Assembly (NCBI GenBank): GCA_000004985.1
Contig: GG738903.1
Source: Naegleria gruberi
Lineage: Eukaryota
Reading direction: 5' to 3' (one strand)
Length of the DNA stretch: 64,000 nucleotides
In this document: positions 1,281 through 53,900 of the stretch, in pieces
How positions within the stretch are numbered: position 1 is the stretch's first letter
How the letters are laid out: each line of letters opens with the position of its first letter
Made by a program: the position numbers and the translations under genes
Notes under the pieces: generated by a model
The model's input: the letters and a program-made list of their open reading frames with translations, nothing else
What the model was told of the DNA's origin: nothing
Database searches by the model: none

Positions 1281-2306
1281 ATGCATAAGAGTTCATCATT
1301 ATCCTTCCTCTTGCTTGGAAGCATTTTGATTTGTTGCTTCTTGGCAACCTTCACAAATGCTCTCAAATTAAATGGGAAAGACAACAAAATTTCACTGGAT
1401 TTAAATTTGAATGGAATTAGTGGTTTGGGTGGTTTAAGTGCTTCATCATCTTCCGCTGCTTCTGCTGCTGCTGGAACATCAACTCAACAACAACAACAAC
1501 CAATTATTATTCAAGCTCCTCAACCTCAAGTTCAATATCAACCACAACCAATTACTATTAAAATTCCACCATTTAAATTCCCAAAGTGTTGTTCAAAGAA
1601 AAAGAAGGTTGAAAAAAAGACTGTTGTTATTGAAGTTCATCAAGAAAAGAGACAAAAGAAGAAGAAACCAACTAAAAAGACAGTCATTGTTGAAATTCAT
1701 CAAAAGAGAAAAGTTAAGAAGGTTAAGAAATCTGTCATTGTTGAAATTCATCAAAAAGTTAAACGTTCTAAATGTTCAAAGAGGGAAAGTAAGAGTTTGG
1801 CTCGTCAAATTAGATCAATTTTCAGAATTAAATATCAACAAGGAAAGAGATTCCATCCAAAGAAACATTTGGGAGCTGATTTGTTGATTTTATTCTCTCA
1901 TTTGAAGAAGAATCGTTCAGTTCCAAAATGTAGAAATAATACCAAGCCAAAACTTCCAAAATCTGTTAAAAAGATGGTAAAGATTATTTTCAAATGGAAG
2001 AAATCAAAGAAGGTTGAAAAGAAGCCTGAAAAAAAGCCTGAAAAGAAATGTAAGAAACCAACTAAACCAAAGAAATGTCCAAAGCCAGTCAAACCAAAGA
2101 AATGTAAAAAACCAACTAAACCAAAGAATAAGAAGCTCACTAAGGAAACTGTAGAAATGCTCAAATATTTGGCCACTTGTGACAAGAAATCTGTCACTAT
2201 TAAGAAGAAGAAGGTTGTTCAAAAGAAGGTTGAAAAGAAGGTTGTTGAAAAGAAACCTGAAAATAAGAATCAAAACATTGATGAAATCTTTTCAAAGAAG
2301 AAATAA
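1281..2306 (+). CDS. secreted lysine-rich repetitive protein (signal peptide, then KK-rich VIVEIHQK and KKPTKPKKC repeats)
   Basis: 341-aa ORF with a hydrophobic signal peptide (LSFLLLGSILICCFLATFTNA). Internal repeats include KKTVVIEVHQEKRQKKKKPTKKTVIVEIHQK and KKCKKPTKPKKCPKPVKPKKC. The antisense ORFs 1438..1887, 1898..2197 and 2004..2273 are artefacts of the low-complexity sequence. Confidence 0.5.
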   Translation: MHKSSSLSFLLLGSILICCFLATFTNALKLNGKDNKISLDLNLNGISGLGGLSASSSSAASAAAGTSTQQQQQPIIIQAPQPQVQYQPQPITIKIPPFKFPKCCSKKKKVEKKTVVIEVHQEKRQKKKKPTKKTVIVEIHQKRKVKKVKKSVIVEIHQKVKRSKCSKRESKSLARQIRSIFRIKYQQGKRFHPKKHLGADLLILFSHLKKNRSVPKCRNNTKPKLPKSVKKMVKIIFKWKKSKKVEKKPEKKPEKKCKKPTKPKKCPKPVKPKKCKKPTKPKNKKLTKETVEMLKYLATCDKKSVTIKKKKVVQKKVEKKVVEKKPENKNQNIDEIFSKKK

Positions 2307-9049: not shown

Positions 9050-11413
9050 TTACAATATGATATCTATTGCACTCTCTTCTTTTAGTGAAATGTATTTTGG
9101 AATCAGTTTTTGCATTTCTTTTTCTAGTTCTGTTGTGAATTCTCTATTGTTTTTCAGCTCGTTTGAAGCAAATTTGAGAGTATATGGTATTTCCAATACC
9201 GCAGCAGTTACAATCTGCTTATCGTTTCTCAATTCCTCTGAGGCAAACTTGAGAGCATTTCCATTTTTAGAGATGGCTGCTAGTACTACTTGCCTATCAT
9301 TTTTCAGTTCCTCTGAGACATACTCGAGGTTTAATCCATTTTGTTGTACTTTTTGTAATGCTAATTCTCTATTATCTATTATTGATAGTGGTTGAGAGGA
9401 AAATACAAATGGTAAAATATAAGTAAATGGTTTTTTGAAAATGAGAATGTCGCCATCTTGTTTCAGTTCTTCAGATGCAAATCTAAAGGAAGAGCCATTG
9501 TTTTGAACTGCCTTCATAACAACCTCTTTGTCATTTCTCAATCTATCCGATGCATATTCAAGAACAATTCCATCCAGTTGAACTGCAGCTAGAACAATAT
9601 CCCTATCGTCCCTTAGTTCTTCTGTGCAGTGTTGTAAAGCTATTGGATTATTTTTAACTGCTTCCATAGCAATAATCTTGTTTCCTTTAAAAGATGTTCC
9701 ACAAAATTTAAGAGAATTTCCATTTTTTCTAATGGCCAAGCTAACTATTTCTAAATCATTCCTTAAAGCCTTACATGCATACCCAAGATTGTTACCGTCT
9801 CTTTTAATAGCTTCTGTAACAATATGACGATCTTTCTTCAATTCCTCAGATGCATAACTAAATGATCCACCATCGGTATTCATTGCCTCTATTATTACAT
9901 CCTTATCATTTCTCAAATTTTCACATGAATAATATAGAGCATTACCATAATTCTTCACTGCTTTCAAGACCATTTCCTTATCATTGTTGAAATGAGGAAT
10001 GCAACATAGTGCTTGTCCTTTTAATTCCATTATTTTTAACATGAATTCTCTATTATTCTTCAATTCTTCAGAGGTCAGTGATAGATTTTTAATTGCATCC
10101 TGAGGTTCACTCATCAATGCAACTTGATAAATGATTTGCTGATCATTCAAAAGTTTAGTAGAGGCATACATAATAGCGTTTGAATTTTGAGTAATAGCCT
10201 CCATTACAATTTCAAAATCATTTCTAAAAGAGAGTGCATATTCAAGAGACATGCCATTTTGTTTTACACACCCTAAAACAAGTTCTTTCTCTATCAAAAA
10301 GTCCTCTGGTGATACAAATTGAAGATTGAGGCCATTCTTTTCACATACATACGAAACAACACTCTTACTATTTTTAAATGGGTGTTTTAAATTTTGAAAA
10401 CAATCAACCAAGCTAGTAACTTTGCCATTCAAATTATCAAACATCACCTGAAATATATTTTCAATAGAATATCTATTGTCTTCGTGAATACATGTCATTC
10501 CTTTACATAAGTCCTTAATTACAATCCATGAAGAAGGATCATTCTCAAATTCGCTAATAGTGGTAGTAGTATTAGTAATAATATTTTGGAATAATGTTTC
10601 GATATCATTCCACAATTCTTCTTGTTGATATTTTAATTGTAAGTGAAATCGATCTAGAAATAGAAATGATAGAATAGTAATACCCAGACTAAAAATATCA
10701 CATTTGCAGGAACATTTTCCATTAAGGATTTCTGGAGCAATAAACCCAATTGTACCAGCAAAACCTGTAGCAGAAGAGTAACAGGAGCTAGTACAATCAT
10801 CAACCAATTGCTCATTATTTTCCTCATTTAACAATAACATATCATCTAAATTATTTTCTGCCATTGTGGCACATCCTAAATCTCCCAACACTATCATTCC
10901 CTCCTCACTCATAAAAATATTTTCCGGTTTAACATCTCTGTGAATGATATGATTCAGTGATAGGGATTGCAAAGCTCCACAACACTGCACAATGATTTGT
11001 AATACCATTAAAATTGAAACTCTTTCCAAGTTTTTTCTCACATCACGCAAATTATTTCCTCTAAATTTAGATATAATAACATATTCTCGTAAGGTTATAG
11101 AGGCTTCATCATCATCATTATAATTATTAAAAGTTTTCATCGATAAAACATTGGCATGATTTGTGTGTTTATACTTTTGCAAATACTCGCTTCTGGTTTC
11201 TCCAGTCTCAAGTAAACCTGAATCATCATGAATAATTTTAAAAACCATCAATGATTGATCGCTCATCTTTCTACACTTGTAAACCCATGTTGTTGGATTT
11301 CGGTAAATTTCTGCTATGGGAAAATAGTATTCACCTTGAAATTCAAAACTTGTTCCATTGTTGTTATTATGGAAAAGAAGCGAAGAAATGGTGGACTGAA
11401 GAGATTTGGTCAT
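9050..11413 (-). CDS. Ser/Thr protein kinase with about 15 C-terminal DUF4116 repeats
   Basis: 787-aa ORF. The kinase catalytic loop HRDVKPENIF, DLG (a DFG variant) and the activation segment GFIAPE are present. The C-terminal half is tandem ~25-aa repeats of the form (A/V)(V/I)xxNGxALxYASEELRNDKEIV, typical of DUF4116. Confidence 0.7.
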   Translation of the reverse strand: MTKSLQSTISSLLFHNNNNGTSFEFQGEYYFPIAEIYRNPTTWVYKCRKMSDQSLMVFKIIHDDSGLLETGETRSEYLQKYKHTNHANVLSMKTFNNYNDDDEASITLREYVIISKFRGNNLRDVRKNLERVSILMVLQIIVQCCGALQSLSLNHIIHRDVKPENIFMSEEGMIVLGDLGCATMAENNLDDMLLLNEENNEQLVDDCTSSCYSSATGFAGTIGFIAPEILNGKCSCKCDIFSLGITILSFLFLDRFHLQLKYQQEELWNDIETLFQNIITNTTTTISEFENDPSSWIVIKDLCKGMTCIHEDNRYSIENIFQVMFDNLNGKVTSLVDCFQNLKHPFKNSKSVVSYVCEKNGLNLQFVSPEDFLIEKELVLGCVKQNGMSLEYALSFRNDFEIVMEAITQNSNAIMYASTKLLNDQQIIYQVALMSEPQDAIKNLSLTSEELKNNREFMLKIMELKGQALCCIPHFNNDKEMVLKAVKNYGNALYYSCENLRNDKDVIIEAMNTDGGSFSYASEELKKDRHIVTEAIKRDGNNLGYACKALRNDLEIVSLAIRKNGNSLKFCGTSFKGNKIIAMEAVKNNPIALQHCTEELRDDRDIVLAAVQLDGIVLEYASDRLRNDKEVVMKAVQNNGSSFRFASEELKQDGDILIFKKPFTYILPFVFSSQPLSIIDNRELALQKVQQNGLNLEYVSEELKNDRQVVLAAISKNGNALKFASEELRNDKQIVTAAVLEIPYTLKFASNELKNNREFTTELEKEMQKLIPKYISLKEESAIDIIL

Positions 11414-11757: not shown

Positions 11758-13311
11758 ATGTTCAAGTTTAAACGAAACAATTCTTCGACTAAACTTGAGG
11801 ATATCCACTTGATTTATGAGTTTCCTTTGGAGGCTATATTCGATGTTCCCGAAGCCAAGGAAGAATTTCGTGCCTATCTAAAGAGGGAACACAATGAAGA
11901 ACCTCTTTTGTTTTATGAGGAAGTTGAAGATTTTAAACGACTTAAATTTGAAGAGAATAAGACAAAGAAGGCATTATTCATACTAAAGACTTATGTCATG
12001 CCGAACAGCAGTCATGAAATTAATATATCATCACAATATAGACAGAATATCGTGTTAGGATTTGAAAAATCAGGTCAACTGACTTCAGAAAAGAATATGT
12101 TGGTTGATGAAACTATTTTTGATGATTCACAAAGTGCTATTTTCTATAATTTGAAGAATGACACTTATCCTAGGTTTACCAAATCTGTTCAATTTAACAA
12201 TTTCCTTAAACAAAAGGATGAAGCATTTATTACATCAATTTCTGTACTGAAAAACACAAAATATATGGAGTATATTCCAAAATTTGATGGATTGGTTTGT
12301 GATAGAGATATTCAATTCTTTTCATTCATGGCTTTTAATGATGATGAGGAAGTTTGGGATGAAATTAAAGTTGGAGCAAGTGGTAGAAGAGCTTGTTATC
12401 AATCCAAAAAGGAATTCAACATTGATGAAAATGAGGAAAAAGCAAATGGTAAACTGTTAAAGCAAGTTTTCATTTTACCATGTTCCAAGGAACAAGCTTT
12501 TAATATGTTTTCTCATACTCAAGTTAGACAGGATATTCTAGATGCAGAGAGTATTAATCAGTTAGATTACATTCCAATATCAAAAACAAATAAGTATGCA
12601 CAATCTATTCTCAAGATTGTTATTCAAATGACAGGTTTAACTTGGGTAATGAAACCTAGACAAGCAGTTGTGGCTGGTACTGTAGTTAAAGATACAAAGA
12701 GAAACTGTATTGCTAATATTATGAAGTCAACCAACTCTGTCCTTCTTCCTGAAAAGAAGTCACATGTTAAAGCGAGAGTACTTTCTTCCAGCTTCTTTGT
12801 AGATTGCTACACCACAACACATCTAAATAAGCTCAAAGATCCACCCCACACAAACCATAGTATGAGTTCTGGAGATTTGAGAAAATCAACCTCATCAGCA
12901 TCATCTACTTCCTCCTTTTCAAGAAAAAGCTCAGTAGCATTTGATGACAGCTTGTCTGATATGAGTACTGAATCATTTGGACCAATTGAAAATGCTTGCA
13001 AAGTAATTTGTGTTTCCTACATTGACTTACAATCAATGCAATCTGATTTTATAAGGAAAAAGTTTTTTAATGCGAAAAACAAGGCAGCCCATACAGTATT
13101 TATGAATTCTGTAAAGGAATTTGGAGCTTTAAATTTCCCTAAACCTAAATTCAGTGAGGGACTATATGACACCTTAGATGCTTTTACTTCACACTATACT
13201 ACTGGTGATAATGACACTGTTATGACCTGGGATTTGGAAGAAGAAGAAGAGGGTAATATGTATCCGTGTTATCCAGCCAACGCTGGATTGAAAGGATTTT
13301 GTCAGATGTGA
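11758..13311 (+). CDS. RGS (regulator of G-protein signalling) domain protein
   Basis: 517-aa ORF. The N-terminal region (FRAYLKREHNEEPLLFYEEVEDFKRL … KKALFILKTYVMPNSSHEINISSQYRQNI) matches the RGS-box consensus. The last 60 bp of the CDS is duplicated in inverted orientation about 580 bp downstream. Confidence 0.6.
   Translation: MFKFKRNNSSTKLEDIHLIYEFPLEAIFDVPEAKEEFRAYLKREHNEEPLLFYEEVEDFKRLKFEENKTKKALFILKTYVMPNSSHEINISSQYRQNIVLGFEKSGQLTSEKNMLVDETIFDDSQSAIFYNLKNDTYPRFTKSVQFNNFLKQKDEAFITSISVLKNTKYMEYIPKFDGLVCDRDIQFFSFMAFNDDEEVWDEIKVGASGRRACYQSKKEFNIDENEEKANGKLLKQVFILPCSKEQAFNMFSHTQVRQDILDAESINQLDYIPISKTNKYAQSILKIVIQMTGLTWVMKPRQAVVAGTVVKDTKRNCIANIMKSTNSVLLPEKKSHVKARVLSSSFFVDCYTTTHLNKLKDPPHTNHSMSSGDLRKSTSSASSTSSFSRKSSVAFDDSLSDMSTESFGPIENACKVICVSYIDLQSMQSDFIRKKFFNAKNKAAHTVFMNSVKEFGALNFPKPKFSEGLYDTLDAFTSHYTTGDNDTVMTWDLEEEEEGNMYPCYPANAGLKGFCQM
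13249..13308. repeat. left arm of a perfect 60-bp inverted repeat (copy of the RGS gene's 3' coding end)
   Basis: The sequence gagggtaatatgtatccgtgttatccagccaacgctggattgaaaggattttgtcagatg is read directly. Its exact reverse complement lies at 13888..13947. Confidence 0.8.
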
Positions 13312-13887
13312 GTGGATTCCGTCGACTGCCAGTGGATTTTTATCTGGATAAATCAGATAAATCAAGGAAAAATCTGGATTTAATGGATAAAATTAAAGGG
13401 GGGCGAGTAACCAATCATTACCATCATTAAACTGATTCAAAACTTTCTTATAGCCAATGGAATTCATGGCCAAGATCTTGCAATTTACCATCTTGTGCAT
13501 TTCTTATAATTTCTGCAAAGAAAATAACACTGCACATTCACTCAAACTCTTCTATTAAATCTTGCTTTTTTTCCAACTATTTCCAATTTGAATTATAATC
13601 ATATGATTTATTGTTATTTTTGTTTGATCTCTCTTAATACAATCACTAGATGAATAAATTTGTGATTAACTTCCGATTCTACCAATTCTACCAATTCCAA
13701 TATGTTGACTTGATTCACGTGATGAATTGGATCTGTTGCTTGTAGATATGAGTCTTTCTGTGTTAGTTTGCCAACTGAAATAATAGCAGCTCTTCTGTGT
13801 ACTAAATTGTATTTTGCAGCCAATAAAATCGGAAATATCCATCCATTATCCATTTTATCCTGGCTTTGTCTTGATGGGATCCACTTA

Positions 13888-13947
13888 CAGTGGATCCCAT
13901 CTGACAAAATCCTTTCAATCCAGCGTTGGCTGGATAACACGGATACA
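13888..13947. repeat. right arm of the 60-bp inverted repeat
   Basis: Exact reverse complement of 13249..13308. On the minus strand it encodes the same peptide EGNMYPCYPANAGLKGFCQM inside ORF 13802..13993. Confidence 0.8.
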
Positions 13948-14275
13948 TATTACCCTCAAGAAGAACAATCGTTACATGAAATAATAACATCACAACTCAA
14001 AATATAAAAATAAATAAGGTATTTCACTACAGTATGAAAATCAACAACAAGACCCTCCAACAATCCATTTCACATGGAGTTGGATTTTTGATTGTTCTCT
14101 TCTCCGATTTGGAACATTGTCAACACTAGCAAGTTGGTTTAGTAAAGATATTTCAATAAAGAAGAGCACTTTGAAATAACGCAAAAACAATTGGTAACAC
14201 TCTATTTTCAATGTCGTAAACAGAAGACTGCTATTTGTCTTTTCAAAATTTGAAAAAAATGTTTAACAAAACCAA

Positions 14276-22005: not shown

Positions 22006-25000
22006 TTACTTCTTTTTTTTAAATTCTGCAAGTAAAGAATGCGAAAGAACATCCTGAGCTTGAGGCCTTGTTAAATTATCCTTTTCAAGCATGCTCAATA
22101 CTAAATCGATAATTTCGTTCGAATATCTTTCCACCAATGTCTTTCTCAGCATTTGCACAACTTCTTTCTCATCTCTATGTCCATACAATTCGGAGATTGA
22201 CGTGGTTATGTCTTTGGTCATGATCTGATACATAACTACTCCCAAACTAAAGATATCTGCATTAAAGTAGTGTTTGTATACAGACACTATTTCTGGAGAT
22301 GAAAAGATTGGATTTACTTTCGTTCCAAAAACTCCATATCCAAAATCTGAAATTAATGCATGAATATTATCGTTATCCAAACTCTTGATGAGTAAATTGG
22401 AATGTTTGATGTTTGCATGAATGCATTTTTCAACACAATGTGAATATTCCAAACCTGTACATATTTGAAAAATGATCTGTTTCACTAACTTTTCAGAAAC
22501 ATTAAAGTTTCGATTAGTCAACTTGCTGAAATCACCCATTTCGAAATAATCCATATCAATGCAAATCTTTTGATCTATTGTACTCACGAAAATCTCATTA
22601 ATTTTACAAATATTTGGATTGGTAGTATTCAGTAGATGAACGGCTTGATTAAGGAATTTGTTCACATCTTCCTCAGATTTGTATTTGACAATTTTGATTG
22701 CTTTTGAACAATTCTTGACAGAATCGATTACTTTAAAGACATTTCCACTTCCAATTCTTGCAATATTGGTATATCTCAAGTGAGGATTGAATTCAGCACT
22801 GATGAAGGCATTTTCTAATTGGAAACTGTAACCACTGCTTGGTTTTAAGTAATATGCTTGAGTTGGAAGATTATCATAGACTAATTCAATATCTCCAGAG
22901 TTGATAGTAGCAACATTGGAAAGAGTTTCCGTTCTTGGTTGTTTCTTTTTCATTCTCCAAACAATGCAAATCAAGAGAATGATAACAATAATGATAATTA
23001 GAATAACAACAAATGCAACTGGAACTGCAATAGCTGCTGCAAGAGCACCTGTATCCATTCCTTGTTGAGCATTATCAGGATTTCTGTTATTACTCAATTC
23101 GGAAATTGGTGAAGATGGTTCTGTAACTATTGGAGGAATTGCTGGGTTGATAATATATGGTAATTCTTGAATGGTGAATAAACTGAGGTGGGATACTTGA
23201 CATTCTAAATCAAAATATAACAAGTCTCCATTTCGTTTTGTTATAGTTACAGAGCTGCTAATTCCTGATTGAGACCAACTTTTCGAATTATCAAGAAAGA
23301 CGCAGGATGCATTGATACCAGTCTTGTTAGCTGTAACAAGTCCTTCAAATTTGAAAATAATAGGATCTGCCAGATTGTCAACCTTCACTCCATTTCCATT
23401 CTTGTCATAAATTGACAAATCCAAAGATGGCCTCACTGAAAGAATATTTCCATCATTGGTGTCATTGGTAATCATTGTTAAGGCATAGAAAATCATAGAT
23501 TTTGATCCTAAATTTTGAACTTGTTCTGAAAATTTGCTTGGGAAGGTAATTTTCACATTCAACAAATCTTTGGAAATGGAAACTGATTTGGAATTGAATT
23601 GTTTTTCAAGTTGAAGGATTTGAGTGGAGATTAATCCATCAGAGGAGGATTTTCCTGTGAGTTTGTAGTAATCTAAATGATACTTGGCTAATTCTCCTTG
23701 CTTTGTTGCGTTATTGGAAAAAGTGTTCGAAAGAATGGTCATTAAACTTGAAATTTCATCAAAGTTCTTTGAATCTAACAGAGTTTTGTAAACATTGGAG
23801 GAATAATAGGAACGTGCTTGATTCATAGAAGCGAATATCCAGTCCATCCACCAAACTATTTCAGAACTAGTTGAAACTGAGAACTTTTCTAATAGATTAA
23901 AGATAGTCGAAATTGAAGGCAGAATTAATTGAACAATCTTTTCATCAGCGTTGTAGCTTAATGAAGGAATATCTTTCAGAGCACTCAACATATCAATAAG
24001 AATGGAAACTGCTTCTCTCTTTGCATCTTGTGAGATTATTCTTTCGGCGACATTATTCAAAGTTTCGTCTTGAGTAATTAATGATATTAAGGCATTTACA
24101 GAATTAATTGTATCTACAGTCAGTGGTTTGGATTGTCTCAGTGCAGCAAATTCATTACTGACATAATTAATTCTAGAAAGAAGTGAATTATTCGAAATAT
24201 CAATTTTTTCTGGCAATAGAGATGGCAAGTTATTTCTAAATTCACTCACAGTTCCAAATTCATTGATCATTTTCACAACCAAAACTAAACTTTGTTGATT
24301 GAAGAATGGTAAGTGAGTCACAATTGTATTTTTCAAACTATTCGAAAGGACAAATAATCTTTCATTTTGTGAGTGAACTTCCATTACAATACTAGAAATG
24401 GAATCTTGTGGAAGTGTTAAACAACTAATAGAAACCAAAGTTTCATGAGCAATAATATCCCTTTCGTTTTTCACTGTTTCTAATAAACAAGTAAATCTTG
24501 GTTTCATATCGATTCTAGTAGAAAGTGTCAACTTGGAAGAGCCATCTGTATTTGTAGTTTCCAATTCAAATTCGTAAAATTCACCTTCAATAAGATATTC
24601 TTTTCCAATATTAAGGTAAACTTCTAGGGAGTTTCCAACAAGAATATTAGAAACTGTGAAAAGTTCAAGATTTGGAGAATTTCTCAATTTTCCATTCAAG
24701 ACTTTCCAATTCAAAGTAACTAAACTTTCAGATTCGACCACACAATATAACGAAAGATTCTTTCCTTCTGGATATACTGATGGAATGTAATCTGGTGTTA
24801 ACTTAGGAACAGAAGTGGCAGAGTTGACCAATTCAATGTAACCAAAATAGGAGAAGGTACTTTCCGCTGTCGTAACATTGGTTCCTATCAAATAGATACC
24901 TTCAAAGAATCCAAGAGAATTAAAATCCGTTTCTAATTGGCAAGATGTTCCTTGACATAAATTATTCGAAACATCCATAATTGACTTGTCTAAAGTTCTG

Positions 25001-28000
25001 TAACAATACCAAGAATAAGATTTTGTAATAGAAGAAACGAAAGGATCATCACTTTCTAATGCAATTGTTAACTTTCCTGAATTTAGAGAAATAGTTCTGT
25101 TAACATTAGTTAATCTCAAGTCAATTGAATTGATTGGTGACTTTTTGATAGGATAGTCGATATTTAGAGTTGATTTAGATTCCCTATGCGTACCTATTAC
25201 CTTAAAAGTTGACAAATTTTCTTGTGGAATTCTTATCATTTGCTTATTAGAAAGCTCTGTATTTATCATTCCAGATACATCATACGAAAGTGAAGTATTT
25301 AATGACAGAGGAGATACTTCAAATAAACAATTATATCCTTTACATTCAAGATTATCAATCAAAACATTAAAGGAAGGAATAAGTTGTCCTTCTGGGTTGA
25401 CTTGAAGATTTTTAACACTTGAAGTCGAAATATACTTCTCATTAGTCGTATTCATCACAATATCGAATACATTCGGAATATCTTTCAATATACTCTTTGG
25501 AATACTAATAACTGTCTTGTTTGCATAATTGACCAAGGTGGAAGAAACAGTTTCAATGGAGGAAGACCAAATTTGAGAAATTTTCTTGAAATGATGATAT
25601 GAAGGTGGAATGTATGATCTGATAATCAAGTCCTGAGAGGATGGAATCAAATCTACGAGTTGCTGAATGGATGGAGTGGAAGGAGTTTGAGGAATTTCAA
25701 AGTCAACTTGGAGTTGAATTCCAAATGTTGTCTTGATAATTGAACCAGTTTCAATTAGATGATTATATCCTAAATAAATCTTGAGATTATTTCTTCTCCA
25801 TTGACATTTAAGCAAGTCAACTTGACCAAATTTGGAAATATCATTTTCTTGAATGAAATTTTCACATCCTTCAACTACAGATTCATTCAAAAACATGTTC
25901 AATACATTAGAATAGGAATAAATTATAGCATTATCAACATCCATTTGAACACTGAGATATTGACATTCATTTCCAACGAAACCTTTCAAACATTCACAAT
26001 TGTTTGGAGATTTACATTGGCCATTACCTGAACATACATTTGAATCAATTTCTGACTTGGAATAGCAAACATTGTATTGACAGTTTCCTCCTGTGAATCC
26101 AGTTTTGCATGAGCATTCGTCTGGTTTCAGACATTTACCCTTTCCAGAACAAACACTTTCGTTATTCGAAAGAACTCCATTACATTTGGCCAGAGAACAT
26201 TCTAAACCGTTCCAACCATTATTACATGTGCAATTATTGTAACTAGAGCATTTGCCATGACCAGAGCAAACATTTGGCATGTCAAAAGTCAGAGAATAAC
26301 ATTTGATTTTGTCACATTTGTCTCCACCCCATTCTTCTGAGCAAGTACAAGTACCACTAGTTAAGCATTGATAACCATTTTGACAAATGCTCTTATTAAC
26401 CCTTGAACAATTGAAAATGTCACAATCCAAACCAAAATAACCCAATTGACATTCACAAACATCTGGAGATTGACATGTGCCAGAAGCAGAGCAAACAGAT
26501 TGATTCAAACTTGATACACCAAAACAATCAAATAAATCACATAAACTTCCTCCATATCCTGAATCACATTTACAAATAGCAATTCCAGTTTCGTTTAAAC
26601 AAGTTCCATTTACACATTGTAAAGTACATGGATTTGGAATTTCACAATTGTATCCATAGTGGCTTGATTTACATGCACAAGTGTCTTTGTCTGTACAATT
26701 ACCGTGACCAGAACAAACTGTAGAGTTGAGTGAATTCACTCCATAACAGTTGAATTTTTCACATTCTTTTCCATAGTAACCTTCTTGACATGTGCAGTTA
26801 TCAAGTGATGAGCAGATTCCTCTTGATGAACAAACTGAAAGTGAGTCTTGAGCCTTTCCATAACAATCAAATTTTTCACAATTTTGTCCATAGTAAGGTT
26901 TTGTACAATTACATGTATCGATATTGGAACAATTACCATGTGATGAACAAACATCCTTCTTATCATTTCTTACACTGAAACAATCATAATACTGACAACT
27001 TTCTCCATAGAAACCTTGTTGACAAGAACAATTATTCAATGAGAGACACACTCCTTTTCCAGAACACACATTCGAATTGAGTGAGCTAACATTATAGCAA
27101 TTAAACTTTTCACACTCTTTGCCATAATAACCTTCCTTGCATGTGCAGTTATCAAGAGAAGAGCAGATACCTCTTGCTGAACAAACATCTCCCATATCAT
27201 TTCTGATACTAAAACAATCATAATATTGGCATCTTTCTCCATAGAAACCTTGTTGACAGGTACAGTTATTCAGGGAGACACAAACTCCCTTTCCAGAACA
27301 AACAGTTGAGTTGAGTGAGGAAACATTATAGCAGTTGAATTTTTCACATTCTTTTCCATAATAACCTTCTTGACATGTACAATTATCAAGTGATGAGCAG
27401 ATTCCTCTTGAAGAACAAACTGAAAGTGAGTCTTGAGCCTTTCCATAACAATCAAATTTTTCACAATTTTGTCCATAATAAGGTTTTGTACAATTACAAG
27501 TGTCAATATTTGTGCAATTACCATGTGATGAACAAACATCTCTCTTATCTTTTCTAACACCATAGCAATCGAATAATTCACAATTGCTTCCATAAAACCC
27601 TTGTTGGCAGGTACAATTGTTAGCAGAAACGCAACTTCCTTTTCCTGAACAAACTGTAGAGTTGAGTGAATTCACTCCATAACAGTTGAATTTTTCACAT
27701 TCTTTTCCATAATATCCTTCTTGACATGTGCAGTTATCAAGTGATGAGCAGAATCCTCTTGAAGAACAAACTGAAATCGAATCTTGAGCCTTTCCATAAC
27801 AATCAAATTTTTCACAGTTTGTTCCATAGTAAGGTTTTGTACAATTACATGTATCGATATTGGAACAATTACCATGTGATGAACAAACATCCTTCTTATC
27901 ATTTCTTACACTGAAACAATCGTAATACTGACACTTTTCTCCATAGAAACCTTGTTGACATGTACAATTATTCAATGAGAGACAAACTCCCTTTCCTGAG

Positions 28001-29612
28001 CAAACATTCAAACTAGTGTTCTTGACACCAAAGCAAGAAACTAATTCACAGTTACTTCCATGATATCCTTCAGAGCATGAACAATTGTTAGGAGAAACAC
28101 ATCGACCTTTCGAATAGGAACAAACTTCTGGACTAGTGGCCAAAATATTCGAACATTTAGGAACGTTACAATTGGAACCACCATACATTTCGGTACAGTT
28201 ACAAACTCCAGGTGCTAGACAATTTCCATTTCCTGAACATACGCTTGGAGAATTTGCCAAAACATTTCCACATTTGTGAATGTCACAATTTTGACCTCCC
28301 CAAAAAGTTGAATTCCAACATGAGCAATTATTTGCATAGACACATGTACCAATTCCAGAACAAACACTAGTATCATTAGCCATTATATTATTACATTTAG
28401 GAATTTCACAAAATTCTCCTCCCCAAAGTGAACTATTGAAACAATTACAAATGTCAAAATTCAAACAAACACCTCTTCCAGAACAGACATCTCCACTATA
28501 TTGGGGATAACCGAAACATACAGCTACACATTCATTCATAGTAGCATTGTATACATAACCTCCTGTGCAATAAGGTTCAATTTTTCTAATACGGAGATTA
28601 CCAGTATCTTTTTCAAAGTATTCGAAATATAAATTCTTCACTACTACTTACCAAGAATAAAAATATGACCTTCTGAACTAACATCCACATCATAGGTATT
28701 ATTCATCTTTACCAAATCACTTCCAGGAGTTTTAGCAACGCCTGAAAATAATGAAATTGTAGCTAAATTTTGGGTACCAGTAGTTCCATAAGAAAATTTC
28801 ACAACACGAACAACATGATTTCCTCTGTCAGCAATGTAAAGATCCTTGTTGGGTCCATAAGCAACTCCAGTAGGTGCGTTATACAAGGCATTGAATGCAC
28901 TGCCATCGGCATAACCAGCAGACCCAACACCTAAATAGGAAGTAGCTCCAGAGCCTGTCCTAATTAAACGATGAGTACCTGGTTCAGCAAAAGTCATTTC
29001 AGTACTAGAAAAGGCTGCGACTCCAGCGGATAGAGAACCTTGTACAATAAGTTGCTGAGTAGAGATGAAATTATTAGCTTTCGTATACTTTCTAACTCTG
29101 TAATTCAATGAATCTGAAAAGTAAATATTGCCATTTGGAAGTGAGGTAACATATTTCGGCTGATTTAGGTATGCATTTGTAGGGAGGGTATTCAAATCAT
29201 TGGCAACACCAGAAACTCCACATTTTCCAATAATTGTTTTAATCTGTCCATTGCTTACTTCTCTAATGACATGATTTAAAGTGTCAGCAATCAATAACTT
29301 TCCTTCTGATGTAACACATATACCACCTGGATAATTCAGCATGGCACCTGTAGCTGTAGTATTAGTGTCGTTTCCAGCAATTCCAGTTCCTGCCACGATT
29401 GTTACTTTCAATGTTGTCAAATCTAATCTTTTCACAAGGTGGTTTTTGGAATCTGAAATGAAAAGTTCATTATTATTACCAACAGCAATTCCTTCAGGAG
29501 AGTTGAAACCTTGTAGGTAGATGTGAGTGATGTTGTACAGAGGTGCAATAGAGTTGACTAAACTCAAGTGCAATAGTATTAGAAACAAGACGAAAGTAAT
29601 GAGTCTTGCCAT
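22006..29612 (-). CDS. giant receptor-kinase-like protein: signal peptide–NHL repeats–about 25 EGF-like repeats–about 1000-aa extracellular region–TM–pseudokinase
   Basis: Two track ORFs, 28644..29612 (signal peptide plus NHL repeats) and 22006..28641, are joined by a 44-nt phase-1 intron 28608..28651 (GTAAGTAG…AAAAG). The join is in frame: …FILG|DTGNLRIRK…. CDS = complement(join(22006..28607,28652..29612)). The TM is ALAAAIAVPVAFVVILIIIIVIILLICIVW. In the C-terminal kinase-like domain the VAIK lysine and DFG are kept, but the catalytic loop reads HANIKHSN (Asp to Asn, about 22411..22419) and APE is SPE. Confidence 0.7.
26650..28000. repeat. intragenic tandem repeats: near-identical three-EGF blocks (units of about 348 and 588 bp, combined period 936 bp) inside the giant receptor gene
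   Basis: The protein block DCYGKAQDS(I/L)SVCSSRG(F/I)CSSLDNCTCQEGYYGKECEKFNCY…CQQGFYG…DVCSSHGNC(S/T)NIDTCNCTKPYYG(Q/T)NCEKF recurs at least four times. The track shows near-identical out-of-frame ORFs 936 bp apart (26736..26966 vs 27672..27902; 26790..26978 vs 27726..27914). Boundaries are approximate. Confidence 0.7.
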
Positions 29613-34428: not shown

Positions 34429-35347
34429 TTACAGAAAATGCAGTTGGATTTGTGTTTTGAGCGTTTCTCTTTTACCCTTAATAGCTTCCATTACAATTTC
34501 CTTGTCATTTCTAATTTCCTCTGAGGCGTATGCAAGTAAACTTGCATGGTTTTTAATTGCTATCATTGCCAACTGTCTGTCATTTCTTAATTCCTTTGAT
34601 ACATGTTTATAAACAATGTCAGCATGTCGGTTAATAGCTTCTGTTACAATTTCTCTGTCACCTCTTAGTTGTTTTGAGGCATATTCAAACATCCATCCAC
34701 ATTTCTTAACTAGTTCCATTACAAGTTCTCTATTATTTTTTATCTCAATAGATGCAAATTCAAAAGCACTCATGTTTTGTTTAATAGCTGCCAATACAAT
34801 TTCTTTGTCTCTTAAATAATGACATACATGTTGAAGTGCAAGGCCATTTTGCTTAACAGCTTCCATTGCTATTTCTTTGTCATGTTTATTAATGTAATTA
34901 TATTTTAGACTCTTTCCATTATTCTTAACGGCAAGAAGTACTATTTCTCTGTTATATTGTAATTGTTTTGATGCATATTGAAGTGGCAAATCCATCAGTC
35001 TGGACTGCTTTCATAATAATTTCTCTATCACTTATCAAATCATCAGGACAATATTTCAAAACATCAACATTGTACTTAATAGCCTCTAAAACAAGTTCTC
35101 TGTCTCTTTTCAGTTCTTCACTAACGTTTTCAAATACTATTATTGGAAATATATTTACAATCATCATGACAATAAACTTGTTATTCCATAAATTCAACAT
35201 TTTCATAACTTTAATAGCCAAATTAAACATTCTATTAGAATTATGTTGGAAGAGTTTTGAAATTAAATAAAAACCATGTTTCTTATAATCAAAGTTGTAA
35301 TGGTCATCACCAACAAGAACAACATCATCTTTCTGACTTTGTAACAC
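34429..35347 (-). CDS. DUF4116-repeat protein split by an apparent +1 frameshift (possible pseudogene or sequencing error); 5' end possibly in the assembly gap
   Basis: ORFs 34952..35347 and 34429..34995 both carry DUF4116 repeats (EELKRDRELVLEAIKYN…, EIVLLAVKNNGKSL…). They overlap in different frames. Removing one A near 34984 (within gccActt on the minus strand) gives a continuous repeat …KAVQTDGFA|LQYASKQLQYNREIV…. An upstream ORF (35383..35595) and then the N-gap at 35662 follow. Confidence 0.45.
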
Positions 35348-35661: not shown

Positions 35662-35711
35662 NNNNNNNNNNNNNNNNNNNNNNNNNNNNNNNNNNNNNNN
35701 NNNNNNNNNNN
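35662..35711. other. assembly gap (50 N)
   Basis: Run of N read directly. Confidence 0.95.
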
Positions 35712-49493: not shown

Positions 49494-50727
49494 TTATTCT
49501 GAACTTGAGGATGAGGCAGTAGATACTTGTATAACTTTGCACTTTTCAAAAACTCTTTTGAATGCCAAATAGTTGGATTGATCTTTTCCATCTTCCAAAA
49601 TAGCAAACACAATACTCTTAAAACTATTTGGAAATTCCTGAGTTATTACTTCATAAAACAATTTAGCCATATGATTTTCTGAAATAAATTGAATTCAATA
49701 AAACAAATAATTAAATAATTAACTTACCTGGATTCTTGTATGCTCCACATCCAAAAGCACTCAACACAATACTCAAATGTCCATTATTAAGAGCTGCATA
49801 AAGAATTCCTCTAATTTTCTGTCTTGTTCCTTCCTCAAACTTGCTCGTCATCATGAGTTGATTTGTCTTTTTATCTAAAAAGGTATTTGGTCTAATGAAA
49901 GCACTTGCTGCAATGATTGAAATTTCCAATGGTTGATCCAAATATTCGAAAGCACTTCCTTCTCCGTGTCTTAATAATTGAACATTGGGTGAGTAAATGA
50001 TATCATAATCAGAAAGTGGATAGAACTGATCTGGGCCAATAACTGAAACTATTTGTTGATCAGGGGAAGGTTTCTTACAATTTGGATTAAACTTTTTGAA
50101 AATATCATTTGGATCTAATAGAGAATAAATGTAATTTGTTGATCTGAAGAGAGCTTCTTCTTGACTTTTCTGTCCAGTTTCAAAACCTCCACCAGCTCTC
50201 TTCTTACTTGCCATATTTAGCACAACTGGATTCATTCCATTTTTGTGTAATTTGAAAATAGTTTCAACACAATCTTCCTTAATTACTTCAATGGTAGTAG
50301 CAAATTGTTGATTAGTAGAGGTGGAATTGAAGACAATCTTCTCAATTTCATTAAATTGATATAACTTATTCTTTGCCAATTGTTGCTCATAAATTTCTTT
50401 ATCCAAGTTTCTAATAGAAACTTTCTCCTTCTTTGAATTATAATAAAACCCTCTCTGTAATGACAACATTGTATCCTTCATGACATAAATCCTCATTCCC
50501 TTCAATGCATCTGGATTATTCTCATTCAAATATCGTTGATGCCACTTTCTAAAAACAACCGAATTAAAAACTGGTGATTGTAACAATAATTTATCCGCAT
50601 TTTCTTGAATTTGATTATAGCTCTGATCAAGAGGATCCGATAAATCAATAGATTGTTGCTGATTTCCCTTTGGATTATTTGCTGATTTATCATCCGATGA
50701 TTTTCCTGGTTTCTTGTTTTTTACCAT
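49494..50727 (-). CDS. bacterial-type poly(ADP-ribose) glycohydrolase-like macrodomain protein (DUF2263/TIGR02452 family; two exons)
   Basis: CDS = complement(join(49494..49678,49728..50727)), with a 49-nt intron (GTAAGTT…TTTCAG). The signature VLNMASKKRAGGGFETGQKSQEEALFRS (GGG-x7-QEE) and the C-terminal SAFGCGAYKNP|ENHMAKLFYEV are characteristic of microbial-type PARG. The track's upstream extension to 50937 runs through poly-T promoter-like sequence, so I start at MVKNKKPGKSS. Confidence 0.65.
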
Positions 50728-50991
50728 TTTTTTTTTATTTTTTTTTAAAGTTTTAATTTTTTCAAATTGGAAATTGAAATTTAGCCAAGTTTTAATTTTC
50801 AAATTCAAATTTAACTTCAAGGCAACTTCCTGGAGTAAAATCCAAATTTCACAGGAAAGAATAAACCCTATTATATTCATATTGCCATTTCGAATAATAT
50901 TAACTCCTAACATTTTACAATAAATTAATATGACCAATAATACGATAGAATCAAGTAGATCAATAATCTATTTAAACGAAAGTGAAATAAT

Positions 50992-53900
50992 TTATTCTCT
51001 CCTATATTTAATCAAATATTCAGGATAGCATTGATATCTATCATAGACAATAAATTCTCTATATGAAGAATTAGAACTATTCGATTGACCAATCACTGAA
51101 TCATACACTCTTCTGTTGGATCCATTAATCTCTGGTGGTCTTCTCTGATTTGTCATTCCCATAGGTGTATAATAGATCTGTCTTCCCAACACAACCCTAC
51201 ACAAAAACATGTAATACTCGCCATTAGTATCTGGAGTAGAATATTGATCTGATTTGGAACAATATTCAGCAAAGTATACTCCAGCTCCAAAGAGACCAGC
51301 TAAACTGGCAACTCTTTCATCAAATCCGTGCTCTGAAATGGTATTCACATATTCATGTTTGGTACCATGCCACAAATACTTTTCATTCATTGATGTGTTC
51401 AATCCAGTTGACTTGAGCCATTCAAAAGCAGGAGATTTCAATGTTGTGAAATTTTCAGTTTGGACTTGAATGGGATTGAGTGGATCTTGATAAGAAGAAA
51501 TGTGATTTTCTCGTATCTTGTAGGCACTGTAAAGGGAAGGATTTTCAATTCTGTAAACACTTGATATGACTAGTTTCGAATATTTCATTTTGTAGAGTTG
51601 ATCTCTTCCTGATCCAAGTGTTTTCGAGTTAGAAGAAACATTCATTATTTCTTGTATAATATCTTTCAATTGACTTGTTACATCAACAGTGTTGTATCTG
51701 TCTGCAAATCTATTAAAACTATTTCGTTTCCAATAACGAGGCAACCCAATATTCAATTGTTTCGACTTGTTTTCAATCATTTCCTTCTCCATCTTTTCAA
51801 GTTTCTTTTCCTTTCTCTTCAACCTTTCCACTTGTTTTGATAATTCCTCTCTTTCCTTTGAACTTTCTCTTGATAATTGTTTCTTCTTCTGTTCTAGTTC
51901 TTTAATTTTCTGCTCGAGCTCAGCATGTTCATTTGTCATGTTAAGTTTCAAATTATTCAATTGTTGCTCATATTCTTTCAATTGTTTTGACTGGTTTTCA
52001 ATGAATTTAACTTGATCTTGAAGTTTCCTTTCGTTCAATGGTTCAAATAAATCATTTTCTTCAATTTCATCAAAACTTGGATCTGAAAGCAGGTCTATTT
52101 TAAATCCTAATCCTTCAAGTTGAATGAATTTAGTTTTGAGCTCTCTCAATTGTTCGTAAATATTCCTCCATTCTTCTTGATATTTAGGAACCTGACTCTC
52201 CTTCTTTCTTAGTTTGTTTTCAAACTTTAAGATTTCCATTTCTGGCATATTTCCCTTCTTGGCGATTTCTAATGCACTTTTGATTCCTTCAATATCTAAG
52301 GTATTCATTTTACTTCTCAATGTTGTCTTTCTAATAAGTAAATTGGTCAATTGAGAGCTCAACTGAGGATAATTATTCATAACTTCAACTTGGCTTTGCA
52401 ACTCTTCAAACTTTTCAATGATAAATGGTATTCTATCTTGAATGAACATTTCACATGTAGAATATTGAATATAATAATCATGAAATAAATGAAAAATTGT
52501 AATCTGAATTTCTTTTGGAATTAAATTTTTAAAATTTGCAGAAATGTCATCCAAGTACTTTCTTTCCTGTTCTAAATTTTCCATAGCATTACCCAAGCTG
52601 GATGATAATTCAGTATTACTAATTCCAACAGAGGAAATTAAAGAAAAAGTAATGTTTTGTAATTGTTTTGTAACGAGCTCCAATCCTATTTTTGAATTTC
52701 GTTCAAAATTCGTTCCTGATACTATTTTACCCAAAGCATTTCCAATATAGTTTGGAATTTCTTCCGTATTTTTTACATAAACAGCTTCATTATTTTGTGA
52801 ATAAATTTCGTTTAAATAGTTTCCAATAAATTCTTTCAATTTTTCTAATTTTTCTTCCAATAATTGCATGTAACTATTGAGATTTATCAAGTAACTATCC
52901 AAATTAATTGCTTCTACCACCGATCCAATATAATATAGTAAACTATTAACATGCTCAATGTGTTCTCTAATTCCAATATCCAAAACTAAATTTGGTAAAT
53001 TTTCATTAATAAAATTGTGACATGTTGATATTTGTCCCTTCATAATAAAATATCCCTCTTGAATAGATTGATGAATGAATAGCTCTTTAGATTGAAAAAT
53101 TACTTTTTCAATCGTTTCTGATAATAGAGTTCTTTGTTTGGAAACTCTTTCATTTAAGGAACATAATTCCATAAATGATTGATTAGTAATTTCATGTTGT
53201 TGTTTTCTTTCTTTTCTTATTTTTTCATTTTCTAAACTTAAACTCTCGATCTTTCTTTCTTCTTTAATTATTCTTCTTTCTTCAGGAAGAATAACACCAT
53301 AATGAATAGCTTTCGAATAGTTTCTATTATTGGAAGTAGAAACTCTATTGCTCTTTTGAGTATTTTGAATTTCAATCTGATTATTCTTCATATCTTCCAT
53401 AATTTTACCAATAGGCTCTCCATTTACTTTCAAACGATAATCAATTTCTAAATCTTCCACTTTTAGTAATAACTTTACAATTTCCAGCTGATTTTTCTGG
53501 CAAGCAGAATGGAGGGGTGTCTAATTGACTTGATTTAATAAGAATTTACAATGAAAACTTACAAAAACAAGGTTCGGATCAGTTCCTGGCTACCATAATC
53601 CTCCAATTAATCCACAATTTTTTTTATCAAAACTTACCATCTATTAAACTATTTAATAATTTACAACATCAATATTAAACACTTACAAACTATTACAAAA
53701 TACTCAACAACCACAACACACCAACAAATCAACTTACGCCAATATTAACATTAATCCCATCACACTCCAATAACAATTTTACAATTTCAACATGTCCATT
53801 CCGACACGCAACAGATAACAAAGTTCTGTTATTTAAAATATCGTCCGAATATTTGTTAACTTGTTGAGGATTGAAGAAAGTTTTAAAATCAGAAACGTTG

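What the first reader, a model, noticed from the sequence alone, without database searches (positions are those of the whole stretch)
13249..13947. Perfect 60-bp inverted repeat copying the last 20 codons of the RGS gene, with arms 579 bp apart
The arms 13249..13308 and 13888..13947 are exact reverse complements and divergent outside. The left arm is the 3' end of the RGS CDS, and the right arm encodes the same peptide in a minus-strand ORF. Perfect identity implies a very recent event. Possible causes are a foldback or MITE-like insertion, a duplicated terminal exon captured by a convergent gene, or gene conversion. Convergent transcription through it would produce a long dsRNA stem. The interior contains short direct repeats (ccaattctaccaattctacc, agtggatt).
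Basis: seen in the sequence. Interest (0 to 1): 0.55.

Follow-up and report, generated by a model that had tools for sequence, protein, structure and literature searches.

The report
Small transposon inserted in RGS gene
The perfect 60-base inverted repeat is the pair of ends of a 709-base non-coding "jumping gene" that landed in the tail of a Naegleria gruberi RGS gene. This is an ordinary kind of event, but it makes the annotated protein end in transposon-derived sequence.

Summary
The inverted repeat is real and perfect (60/60). The right arm lies at 13898-13957, not 13888-13947, so the interior is 589 bp. The window is Naegleria gruberi.

The arms are not a copy of the RGS gene's last exon. 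They are the terminal inverted repeats of a 709-bp non-coding DNA transposon (13249-13957), flanked by an 8-bp target-site duplication (AAGAAGAA). Deleting the element plus one duplicate restores an ORF ending ...WDLEEEEQSLHEIITSQLKI*. That tail matches the C-termini of the Naegleria fowleri and N. lovaniensis orthologues; the annotated tail (GNMYPCYPANAGLKGFCQM) matches none.

A second copy splits a receptor gene on another scaffold into two annotated proteins. One reads into the repeat (...QPFGY|EGNMYPCYPANAGLKGFCQM*). The other reads out of it (MGSTYSGSHLTKSFQSSVGWITRIHITL|...). Back-translating those junctions allows only an 8-bp duplication (TTGGATAT). A 99%-identical protein on a third scaffold reads through uninterrupted, which looks like an empty site.

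Both subterminal regions carry TGGAT(A/T) repeats in inverted orientation. The element has no transposase and no Pfam domain.

Verdict: a MITE-like, recently mobile element of unassigned superfamily (hAT-like by duplication length). It is an ordinary kind of feature and a useful annotation correction. A long-shot reading is that it is spliced out as an intron.

The parts
13241..13248 (.). Left copy of the 8-bp target-site duplication, AAGAAGAA. These are host RGS codons, part of the EEEE stretch.
   Evidence: It directly abuts the left arm and is identical to 13958-13965. The empirical chance of such 8-nt flank identity in this window is 5.8e-5.
13249..13308 (+). Left terminal inverted repeat, 60 nt, with tip 5'-GAGGGTAATATG. 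In the RGS frame it reads EGNMYPCYPANAGLKGFCQM, followed by TGA at 13309-13311.
   Evidence: Exact reverse complement of 13898-13957. The same peptide ends a second, unrelated N. gruberi protein, P0158.
13309..13390 (+). Left subterminal region with five forward TGGAT(A/T) motifs (starts 13313, 13333, 13345, 13375, 13384). A sixth lies inside the terminal repeat at 13284. These are putative transposase-binding repeats.
   Evidence: Five copies in 140 nt against about 0.29 expected from the window frequency of 0.0021 per nt per strand. There is weak inverted similarity to 13846-13875 (I3).
13391..13835 (.). AT-rich non-coding core of the element. It includes the 9-nt direct repeat TTCTACCAA x2 at 13677-13694.
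   Evidence: Five ORFs of 54-108 aa in or overlapping the element have no Pfam family even at E up to 10. A six-frame chimera of the element (segments of 14 aa or more) finds only terminal-repeat junction peptides among 5.8 billion proteins. No Rfam family was found.
13836..13897 (-). Right subterminal region with four inverted TGGAT motifs (ATCCA at 13837, 13841, 13848, 13879). A local palindrome, GGGATCCACT-TAC-AGTGGATCCC (13876-13898), ends on the first base of the right arm. Read on the + strand, 13874-13957 encodes MGSTYSGSHLTKSFQSSVGWITRIHITL.
   Evidence: motif count; palindrome, self-hit 617-660; the identical 28 aa start protein P0008 at the second locus.
13898..13957 (-). Right terminal inverted repeat, 60 nt.
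13958..13965 (.). Right copy of the 8-bp target-site duplication, AAGAAGAA.
11758..13248 (+). RGS-domain gene: the host part of the coding sequence upstream of the insertion. The RGS domain spans residues 25-149.
   Evidence: The annotated protein P0001 (XP_002671667.1, N. gruberi) is 100% identical to ORF 11758-13311. Pfam RGS, E = 2.3e-20.
13966..14007 (+). Displaced ancestral 3' end of the RGS coding sequence (QSLHEIITSQLKI + TAA). It is in frame with 11758-13248 once the element and one duplicate copy are removed.
   Evidence: Restored ORF. The tail aligns with orthologue tails ...(T/M/S)LHE(I/L)(V/I)..., and only 0-14 of 2000 shuffles reach the observed score for 5 of 6 orthologues.
13253..13960 (+). 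Hypothetical, untested GT..AG intron (708 nt, or 13253-13963 at 711 nt). It would remove nearly the whole element and rejoin the ancestral tail with 3 or 2 extra Glu residues.
   Evidence: Enumeration of frame-restoring GT/AG pairs. The donor AGG|GTAATA comes from the terminal-repeat tip and the acceptor CCCTCAAG| comes from the repeat end plus the duplication. No expression data are available here.

Best explanation
The 60-nt arms are the terminal inverted repeats of a 709-bp non-autonomous cut-and-paste DNA transposon (MITE-like) at 13249-13957. It inserted into the last codons of a Naegleria gruberi RGS-domain gene.

Shown:
- The staggered 8-bp target cut left the direct duplication AAGAAGAA on both sides.
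- The RGS frame now runs 20 codons into the left repeat and stops at the TGA just inside it. The annotated 517-aa protein therefore ends in transposon-derived sequence.
- The ancestral 13-residue tail (QSLHEIITSQLKI) is stranded downstream of the right arm.
- The element encodes no detectable protein.
- A second copy interrupts another gene on a different scaffold.

Inferred:
- It is mobilised in trans by a transposase encoded elsewhere. That transposase would recognise the repeat tips and the TGGAT(A/T) subterminal repeats.
- The 8-bp duplication and the -AGGG tip fit a hAT-like enzyme best, but the superfamily is not established.
- An almost identical uninterrupted copy of the second gene on a third scaffold indicates presence/absence polymorphism, hence recent mobility.
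- Read-through transcripts would fold into a 60-bp perfect stem.
For: (1) Perfect 60/60 arms, unique in the window.

(2) An 8/8 direct duplication directly abuts both arms. The empirical chance is 5.8e-5.

(3) Removing 13249-13957 plus 8 nt restores an open frame ...TWDLEEEEQSLHEIITSQLKI*. All six Naegleria homologues carry a matching tail right after the acidic stretch: LHDMV, LHDIV, LHEIV, MHELI. In five of six, only 0-14 of 2000 shuffles score as well. The repeat-coded tail scores at background. The N. fowleri orthologue is one uninterrupted exon.

(4) Second locus, on a 665-kb scaffold. P0158 ends ...AYQPFGY|EGNMYPCYPANAGLKGFCQM*. P0008 begins MGSTYSGSHLTKSFQSSVGWITRIHITL|LDIQAPL..., where the first 28 aa equal window 13874-13957. 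Homologues align with P0008 only from residue 34 or later, which corresponds to about residue 120-200 in most full-length homologues, so P0008 is the 3' half of a split gene.

(5) Back-translating the two host junctions permits a duplication at exactly one length among 2-12 nt: 8 nt, TTGGATAT.

(6) P0010, on a 43.9-kb scaffold of the same assembly, reads ...YQPYGYPGTIRDIV... uninterrupted. It is 117/118 identical to P0158 and 290/290 identical to P0008 over the host parts. No GT-AG intron could excise the element plus duplication exactly, so this looks like an empty site.

(7) TGGAT(A/T) occurs 5 times forward and 4 times inverted in the two 140-nt subterminal regions, against about 0.29 expected in each.

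(8) No Pfam domain in the ORFs tested in or overlapping the element. No transposase domain in 29 of the 30 window ORFs of 180 aa or more; the 2211-aa ORF was not scanned.

(9) The element lies more than 20 kb from the nearest assembly gap.
Against: A high copy number, which is part of the usual MITE definition, is therefore not shown.

No autonomous partner was found.

The repeat tip starts with G (GAGGG) rather than the C/T usual for hAT elements, and 60-bp terminal repeats are long for hAT.

The locus-1 duplication lies in a GAA repeat, where short flank matches are more likely than in random sequence. The frame restoration and locus 2 compensate for this.

The empty-site status of P0010 is inferred from a protein model, not read from DNA.
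Confidence: 0.9

Rival explanations
1. Introner-like behaviour, compatible with the transposon origin but a different function. The element would be removed from the RGS pre-mRNA as a spliceosomal intron. It would use a donor carried in the terminal-repeat tip (GAGG|GTAATA) and an acceptor created by the repeat end plus the target duplication (CCCTCAAG|). The gene would then still make a near-normal protein with 2-3 extra Glu residues.
For: Element plus duplication is 717 nt, or 3 x 239. GT..AG pairs 13253-13960 (708 nt) and 13253-13963 (711 nt) restore the frame into QSLHEIITSQLKI*.

At locus 2, the DNA inferred by back-translation offers the same donor plus an acceptor CCAG| 12 nt past the element. 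That would give FGYEGTIR in place of FGYPGTIR. This is an inference, not read from DNA.

Both detectable copies sit in coding sequence in the same orientation. The 60-bp stem would bring the two splice sites together.
Against: The chance of a frame-compatible AG within 12 nt is about 0.3 per locus by my estimate, so two out of two is weak evidence.

Finding copies by protein search selects for coding-sequence insertions in this reading phase.

All three annotated gene models (P0001, P0158, P0008) treat the element as exon or terminator, not as an intron.

From my own recollection, unchecked here, a 708-nt intron would be long for Naegleria. GTAATA is not an ideal donor.

No paper in the searched library linked introner elements to Naegleria.
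Confidence: 0.08
2. A local inverted duplication or gene conversion copied the RGS terminal exon to the opposite strand. The mechanism could be a template switch or capture by a convergent gene, with no mobile element involved.
For: The left arm coincides with the end of the annotated RGS ORF, and the right arm encodes the same peptide on the minus strand.
Against: The peptide is absent from all orthologue tails. The orthologue-like tail lies beyond the right arm and comes into frame only if the element plus 8 nt is removed.

The same terminal sequences flank an unrelated gene on another scaffold.

A direct 8-bp duplication flanks the arms.

No convergent gene is evident: the minus-strand ORFs tested lack any homologue or domain.
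Confidence: 0.02
3. An assembly artefact: a chimeric or fold-back join in the draft assembly created the inverted repeat.
For: The genome is a draft with gaps; N runs lie at 35662-35711 and 55624-55715. Read support cannot be checked here.
Against: The nearest gap is more than 20 kb away. The structure has exact transposon anatomy: terminal repeats, an 8-bp duplication and subterminal repeats. The same junction sequences recur at an independent locus with its own 8-bp duplication.
Confidence: 0.02
4. A classification rival. The element belongs to a superfamily other than hAT, for example a Mutator-like element (long terminal repeats, G-rich tip), or P, Merlin, Zisupton or Novosib, which by my recollection also make 8-bp duplications.
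For: The terminal repeats are long (60 bp) and the tip begins GAG, as in maize Mu (own knowledge). A full-length MuDRF element has been reported in N. gruberi (PMC3164196).
Against: MuDRF and most Mutator elements give 9-bp or longer duplications (PMC3164196). Both loci here give exactly 8 bp, and 9 bp is excluded at locus 2.

No transposase is available to decide.
Confidence: 0.35

Closest known systems
MITEs / non-autonomous TIR DNA transposons (class II, cut-and-paste)
   Same: It is small (709 bp), non-coding and AT-rich inside. It has perfect terminal inverted repeats, a fixed-length target-site duplication and subterminal short repeats. It is found inside genes and folds into a long hairpin if transcribed.
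   Different: Only two copies are documented here, whereas classical MITE families have tens to thousands. The 60-bp terminal repeats are at the long end of the range. No parent element has been identified.
hAT superfamily non-autonomous elements (Ds-like)
   Same: An 8-bp duplication at both loci. The tip -AGGG fits positions 2-5 of the usual YARNG tip. The subterminal short-motif repeats in inverted orientation resemble the Ac/Ds subterminal hexamers (own knowledge). Like Ds, it is inserted in coding sequence with potential partial splicing.
   Different: The first base is G, not C/T. The terminal repeats are 60 bp rather than about 10-25 bp. Only one of the two duplications fits the loose nTnnnnAn target preference (TTGGATAT fits, AAGAAGAA does not). 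No hAT transposase was linked to it.
Mutator-like elements, including MuDRF reported in N. gruberi (PMC3164196)
   Same: Long terminal repeats with a G-rich tip. This superfamily is known to be present in the species.
   Different: The duplication is 8 bp, not 9-11 bp. A 9-bp duplication is excluded at locus 2 by back-translation.
Introner elements (transposon-derived introns of Micromonas, Aureococcus, some fungi and others)
   Same: It is a short non-autonomous transposon inside coding sequence. One splice site could come from the element and the other from the element end plus the duplication. The insert length is a multiple of three.
   Different: Splicing is not shown. Only two copies are known. 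Existing gene models do not splice it. No such family was found reported for Heterolobosea in the literature searched.
Foldback elements
   Same: An inverted-repeat structure that can fold back on itself.
   Different: The arms are 60 nt of unique sequence, not long arrays of tandem subrepeats. The loop (589 bp) is much longer than the arms. The duplication is 8 bp rather than 9 bp (own knowledge of Drosophila FB).

Membership tests
Non-autonomous TIR DNA transposon (MITE-like) | Terminal inverted repeats at both ends | tested here: met
   60/60 perfect arms at 13249-13308 and 13898-13957.
Non-autonomous TIR DNA transposon (MITE-like) | Target-site duplication of fixed length directly flanking the repeats | tested here: met
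   AAGAAGAA on both sides at locus 1 (chance 5.8e-5). At locus 2 only 8 bp (TTGGATAT) is compatible with the junction peptides.
Non-autonomous TIR DNA transposon (MITE-like) | An empty site: the pre-insertion sequence is reconstituted by removing the element plus one duplicate copy | tested here: met
   The restored RGS tail matches orthologues. The uninterrupted near-identical protein P0010 covers locus 2. This is protein-level evidence only.
Non-autonomous TIR DNA transposon (MITE-like) | Small size and no transposase coding capacity | tested here: met
   709 bp. No Pfam hit at E up to 10 for five ORFs in or overlapping the element. No homologues apart from junction peptides.
Non-autonomous TIR DNA transposon (MITE-like) | Multiple dispersed copies in the genome | tested here: inconclusive
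   At least 2 copies, the window plus the 665-kb scaffold. The whole-genome copy number could not be obtained. There is no further copy in this window.
hAT superfamily | 8-bp target-site duplication | tested here: met
   8 bp at both loci.
hAT superfamily | Short terminal repeats with a YARNG tip | tested here: not met
   The tip is GAGGG, so the first base is G. The repeat is 60 bp. The consensus is quoted from my own knowledge.
hAT superfamily | Transposase with a BED finger, RNase-H-like DDE domain and hAT dimerisation domain, in an autonomous partner sharing the termini | not testable with these tools
No transposase domain was found in 29 of the 30 window ORFs of 180 aa or more.
Mutator-like elements (MULE / MuDRF) | 9-11 bp target-site duplication | tested here: not met
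   8 bp at locus 1. At locus 2, lengths of 9, 10 and 11 are incompatible with the junction peptides. The 9-bp duplication for MuDRF comes from PMC3164196.
Mutator-like elements (MULE / MuDRF) | Long terminal repeats (often 100 bp or more) | tested here: inconclusive
   The 60-bp perfect repeats are intermediate in length.
Introner elements | The element is removed from mRNA by the spliceosome, using splice sites supplied by the element and/or the duplication | not testable with these tools
   Frame-preserving GT..AG pairs exist but no transcript data are available. RNA-seq PRJEB23822 exists.
Introner elements | Many near-identical copies that make up annotated introns across the genome | not tested
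   This needs a whole-genome search. The three gene models touching the element do not treat it as an intron.
Foldback elements | Long arms built from tandem subrepeats, with little or no loop | tested here: not met
   The arms are unique sequence and the loop is 589 bp.

The most novel reading that the evidence does not exclude
The element is an introner-like transposon. Its symmetric terminal repeats carry a 5' splice donor (GAGG|GTAAT). Its end plus the target duplication supplies the acceptor. Its length plus the duplication (717 nt) is a multiple of three. Insertions into Naegleria coding sequence would then be spliced out and become new introns. This would be a first case of ongoing transposon-driven intron gain in Heterolobosea.
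Probability: 0.07. Interest if true: 0.6.

Novelty: new member of a known kind. Interest (0 to 1): 0.22.

Why it matters
The main value is annotation and housekeeping.
- The C-terminus of the N. gruberi RGS protein XP_002671667.1 is transposon-derived. Its conserved LHE(I/V) tail is displaced.
- Two 'predicted proteins' on another scaffold (the 190-aa P0158 and XP_002680337.1) are halves of one receptor gene split by the same element.

It also indicates that strain NEG-M carries a recently mobile DNA transposon family that differs between haplotype scaffolds. That could be useful as a marker, or eventually as a genetic tool, in an organism with few such tools.

It would address how new introns arise only if the element proves to be spliced out.

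Tried and rejected
- Fetching other N. gruberi loci by exact protein look-up (the RGS ORF, P0008, P0010): none is on record, so no DNA of the second locus or the empty site could be read.
- Scanning JGI metagenome contigs (twice) and IMG/VR viral contigs for terminal-repeat sub-strings: 0 hits.
- Looking for a further or degenerate copy in the window: none with up to 3 mismatches on 18- to 60-nt tips, and nothing by word-7 blastn.
- Pfam scan of the element's ORFs at E up to 10: nothing. Rfam at E up to 1: only two sub-threshold chance hits.
- Looking for an autonomous transposase among 29 of the 30 window ORFs of 180 aa or more: only host genes (kinase-DUF4116, RGS, ankyrin-DHHC, Hsp70, NHL, F-box, IBR, Nup192, PARG, PARP, epimerase and others). 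The 2211-aa ORF at 22006-28641 was not scanned.
- Literature on Naegleria MITEs, hAT elements or introners: nothing specific. The only relevant statements were that Kolobok and MuDRF occur in Naegleria. The N. gruberi genome paper is not held.
- Rejected ideas: a CaaX-type lipidation signal in the ...GFCQM tail (the Cys is at -3, and the tail is transposon-derived anyway); a convergent minus-strand gene; and the GTGAGT just inside the left arm as a genuine RGS intron donor (no frame-restoring partner).
Full report
**Observation.** The window is AT-rich (about 33% G+C). It belongs to Naegleria gruberi: ORF 11758-13311 is 100% identical to the annotated RGS domain-containing protein XP_002671667.1 (P0001, 517 aa).

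The 60-mer GAGGGTAATATGTATCCGTGTTATCCAGCCAACGCTGGATTGAAAGGATTTTGTCAGATG occurs exactly twice. One copy is at 13249-13308 on the + strand and the other at 13898-13957 on the - strand. There are 0 mismatches, and no shuffle of the window gives even one match. It is the only inverted repeat of 30 nt or more in the 64 kb.

The interior is 589 bp and the feature ends at 13957. Inside the arms the two sides diverge immediately: TGAGTGG... against GGATCCA....

The 8 nt directly outside each arm are a direct repeat...GGAAGAAG[AAGAAGAA]|GAGGG...CCCTC|[AAGAAGAA]CAATCG.... Over all positions and comparable spacings in this window, such 8-nt flank identity occurs with frequency 5.8e-5.

Deleting 13249-13957 plus one 8-nt copy joins the RGS frame to 13966-14007. 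This gives ...VMTWDLEEEEQSLHEIITSQLKI*.

The six homologues from N. fowleri, N. lovaniensis and environmental Naegleria all continue after the conserved (M/V/I)TW(E/D/N)(L/M) + acidic stretch with a tail of the type (T/M/S)LHE(I/L)(V/I) (alignment A1). The restored tail scores 24-30 (BLOSUM62) against five of them, with only 0-14 of 2000 shuffles as good. The annotated tail GNMYPCYPANAGLKGFCQM scores 10-12, which is background. The N. fowleri orthologue is one uninterrupted 537-codon exon.

So the arms do not copy the RGS terminus. The RGS frame runs into foreign DNA, and the true terminus is displaced 717 nt downstream.

**A second copy.** A chimeric query made of the six-frame translation of the element (segments of 14 aa or more) was searched against 5.8 billion proteins. 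It found one hit, N. gruberi EFC47593.1 (P0008, 678 aa, 665-kb scaffold). Its first 28 residues, MGSTYSGSHLTKSFQSSVGWITRIHITL, equal the outward reading of window 13874-13957. That is the right arm plus 24 subterminal nt.

A second chimera of terminal-repeat peptides found P0158 (190 aa, same 665-kb scaffold). It ends ...AYQPFGY|EGNMYPCYPANAGLKGFCQM*, exactly as the RGS protein does.

Homologues of P0008 begin to align only at its residue 34 or later, which corresponds to about residue 120-200 in most full-length homologues. P0158 supplies exactly that missing N-terminal part. One gene is therefore split by the element into two annotated 'proteins'.

P0010 (EFC35967.1, partial, 43.9-kb scaffold of the same assembly) reads straight through...AYQPYGYPGTIRDIVNITTG.... 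It is 117/118 identical to the host part of P0158 and 290/290 identical to that of P0008. P0008's residues 29-35 (LDIQAPL) are the +1 frame of (F)GYPGTI.

Back-translating '...QPFGY' and 'LDIQA...' shows that, among lengths of 2-12 nt, a duplication is possible only at 8 nt, and then uniquely as TTGGATAT. No GT-AG intron could remove the element plus duplication exactly at that site, by my enumeration of the duplication offsets. P0010 therefore most likely reflects an empty site on an alternative haplotype scaffold. That N. gruberi NEG-M is heterozygous is my own recollection of the genome paper, which I could not read here.

**Anatomy.**
- The element is 709 bp.
- The arms are 60 nt each.
- Immediately inside the arms, TGGAT(A/T) occurs five times forward in 140 nt on the left and four times inverted in 140 nt on the right, against about 0.29 expected in each. 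This is the arrangement of subterminal transposase-binding repeats.
- The right subterminal region also holds a 10+3+10 palindrome at 13876-13898.
- The core is AT-rich. Five ORFs of 54-108 aa in or overlapping the element have no Pfam match at E up to 10. No Rfam match reaches threshold.
- None of the 29 window ORFs of 180 aa or more that were scanned carries a transposase domain.
- As RNA, the region folds into the expected long hairpin: -246.8 kcal/mol over 749 nt, z = -10.9.

**Mechanism.**
- Shown: the element has terminal repeats, an 8-bp duplication at two independent loci, a reconstitutable empty site and no coding capacity.
- Inferred: it is a non-autonomous cut-and-paste transposon. 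A transposase encoded elsewhere mobilises it in trans, making 8-bp staggered target cuts.
- Superfamily: the 8-bp duplication and the -AGGG tip favour a hAT-like enzyme. The G first base and the 60-bp arms are atypical for hAT.
- Mutator-type elements do exist in N. gruberi but make 9-bp duplications (PMC3164196). A 9-bp duplication is excluded here. I leave the superfamily open.
- Consequence for the host: the RGS domain (residues 25-149) is intact, but the conserved tail is replaced by 20 transposon-coded residues. The second gene is broken in one haplotype.

**Rivals.** Local duplication or gene conversion, and a convergent gene, are contradicted by the orthologue tails, the second locus and the lack of any homologue for the tested minus-strand ORFs. 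An assembly artefact is unlikely: the nearest N run is more than 20 kb away and the same junctions recur elsewhere.

The one reading with some novelty is that the element is spliced out.
- The repeat tip offers AGG|GTAATA.
- The repeat end plus the duplication offers CCCTCAAG|.
- Introns 13253-13960 or 13253-13963 restore the ancestral tail with 3 or 2 extra Glu.
- Element plus duplication is 717 nt, or 3 x 239.
- A comparable in-frame pair can be inferred at locus 2.

Such coincidences are expected in roughly 30% of sites by my estimate. My way of finding copies selects for this reading phase, and all gene models ignore the possibility. I give it about 7%. RNA-seq that could settle it exists (PRJEB23822; PMC6142364).

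**Novelty and verdict.** I found no description of this element in the searchable literature. It may well be in Repbase, which I cannot query.

It is a new, or at least locally undocumented, member of a very well known kind. It is an ordinary finding, cleanly explained, and its practical value is correcting three N. gruberi gene models. Interest 0.22.

Noticed in passing
second locus (not in window): proteins P0158, P0008, P0010: Two annotated N. gruberi proteins on the 665-kb scaffold are the 5' and 3' halves of one receptor-type gene split by the same element: P0158 (190 aa) and XP_002680337.1 (678 aa). XP_002668711.1, on a 43.9-kb scaffold, is the uninterrupted, 99%-identical version, probably an alternative haplotype. 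P0008 itself has no Pfam hit at E up to 0.001.
   Followed up: partly
window 35662-35711 and 55624-55715: Two runs of N (50 and 92 nt) mark assembly gaps in the draft scaffold. The second cuts through the ORF pair 54372-55721 / 55744-56313.
   Followed up: no
window 22006-29612 (-): A very long ORF (2211 aa) contains 117-nt (39-aa) tandem repeats at 234/117-nt spacing, with 60-94% identity between copies (families D1-D3). It is directly followed by an NHL-repeat ORF (28644-29612). This is probably one large repeat-rich surface protein gene.
   Followed up: no
window 9050-11413 (-) and 34429-34995 (-): One ORF is a protein kinase fused to 11 DUF4116 repeats. A second ORF 24 kb away carries 5 DUF4116 repeats. 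The two share DNA-level repeat similarity (families D4, D6, D9).
   Followed up: no
window 49711-53460 (-): A microbial-type PARG catalytic-domain ORF (49711-50937) lies immediately downstream of a PARP catalytic-domain ORF (50992-53460) on the same strand. This is either an adjacent writer/eraser pair or a single split gene.
   Followed up: no
window 13876-13898: A perfect 10+3+10 palindrome, GGGATCCACT-TAC-AGTGGATCCC, abuts the inner edge of the right arm and contains two BamHI sites. The left end has no counterpart; instead it has AGTGGATT twice (13311-13318 and 13331-13338). The two ends of the element are therefore asymmetric just inside the arms.
   Followed up: partly
L001 6001-9475 (N. 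fowleri VFQX01000060.1): In N. fowleri the RGS orthologue is followed by a tandem RGS paralogue (537 aa). Its neighbours (Tfb2, PNO1, a SNF2 helicase) differ from those in the N. gruberi window, so there is no local synteny around this gene. N. lovaniensis also has two adjacent locus tags, C9374_007700 and C9374_007701.
   Followed up: no
window 1600-2270 (+): Lys/Glu-rich short tandem repeats (27-nt and 12-15-nt units such as AAAGAAGGTTGAAAAGAAG) lie inside ORF 1281-2306, which has no Pfam match.
   Followed up: no
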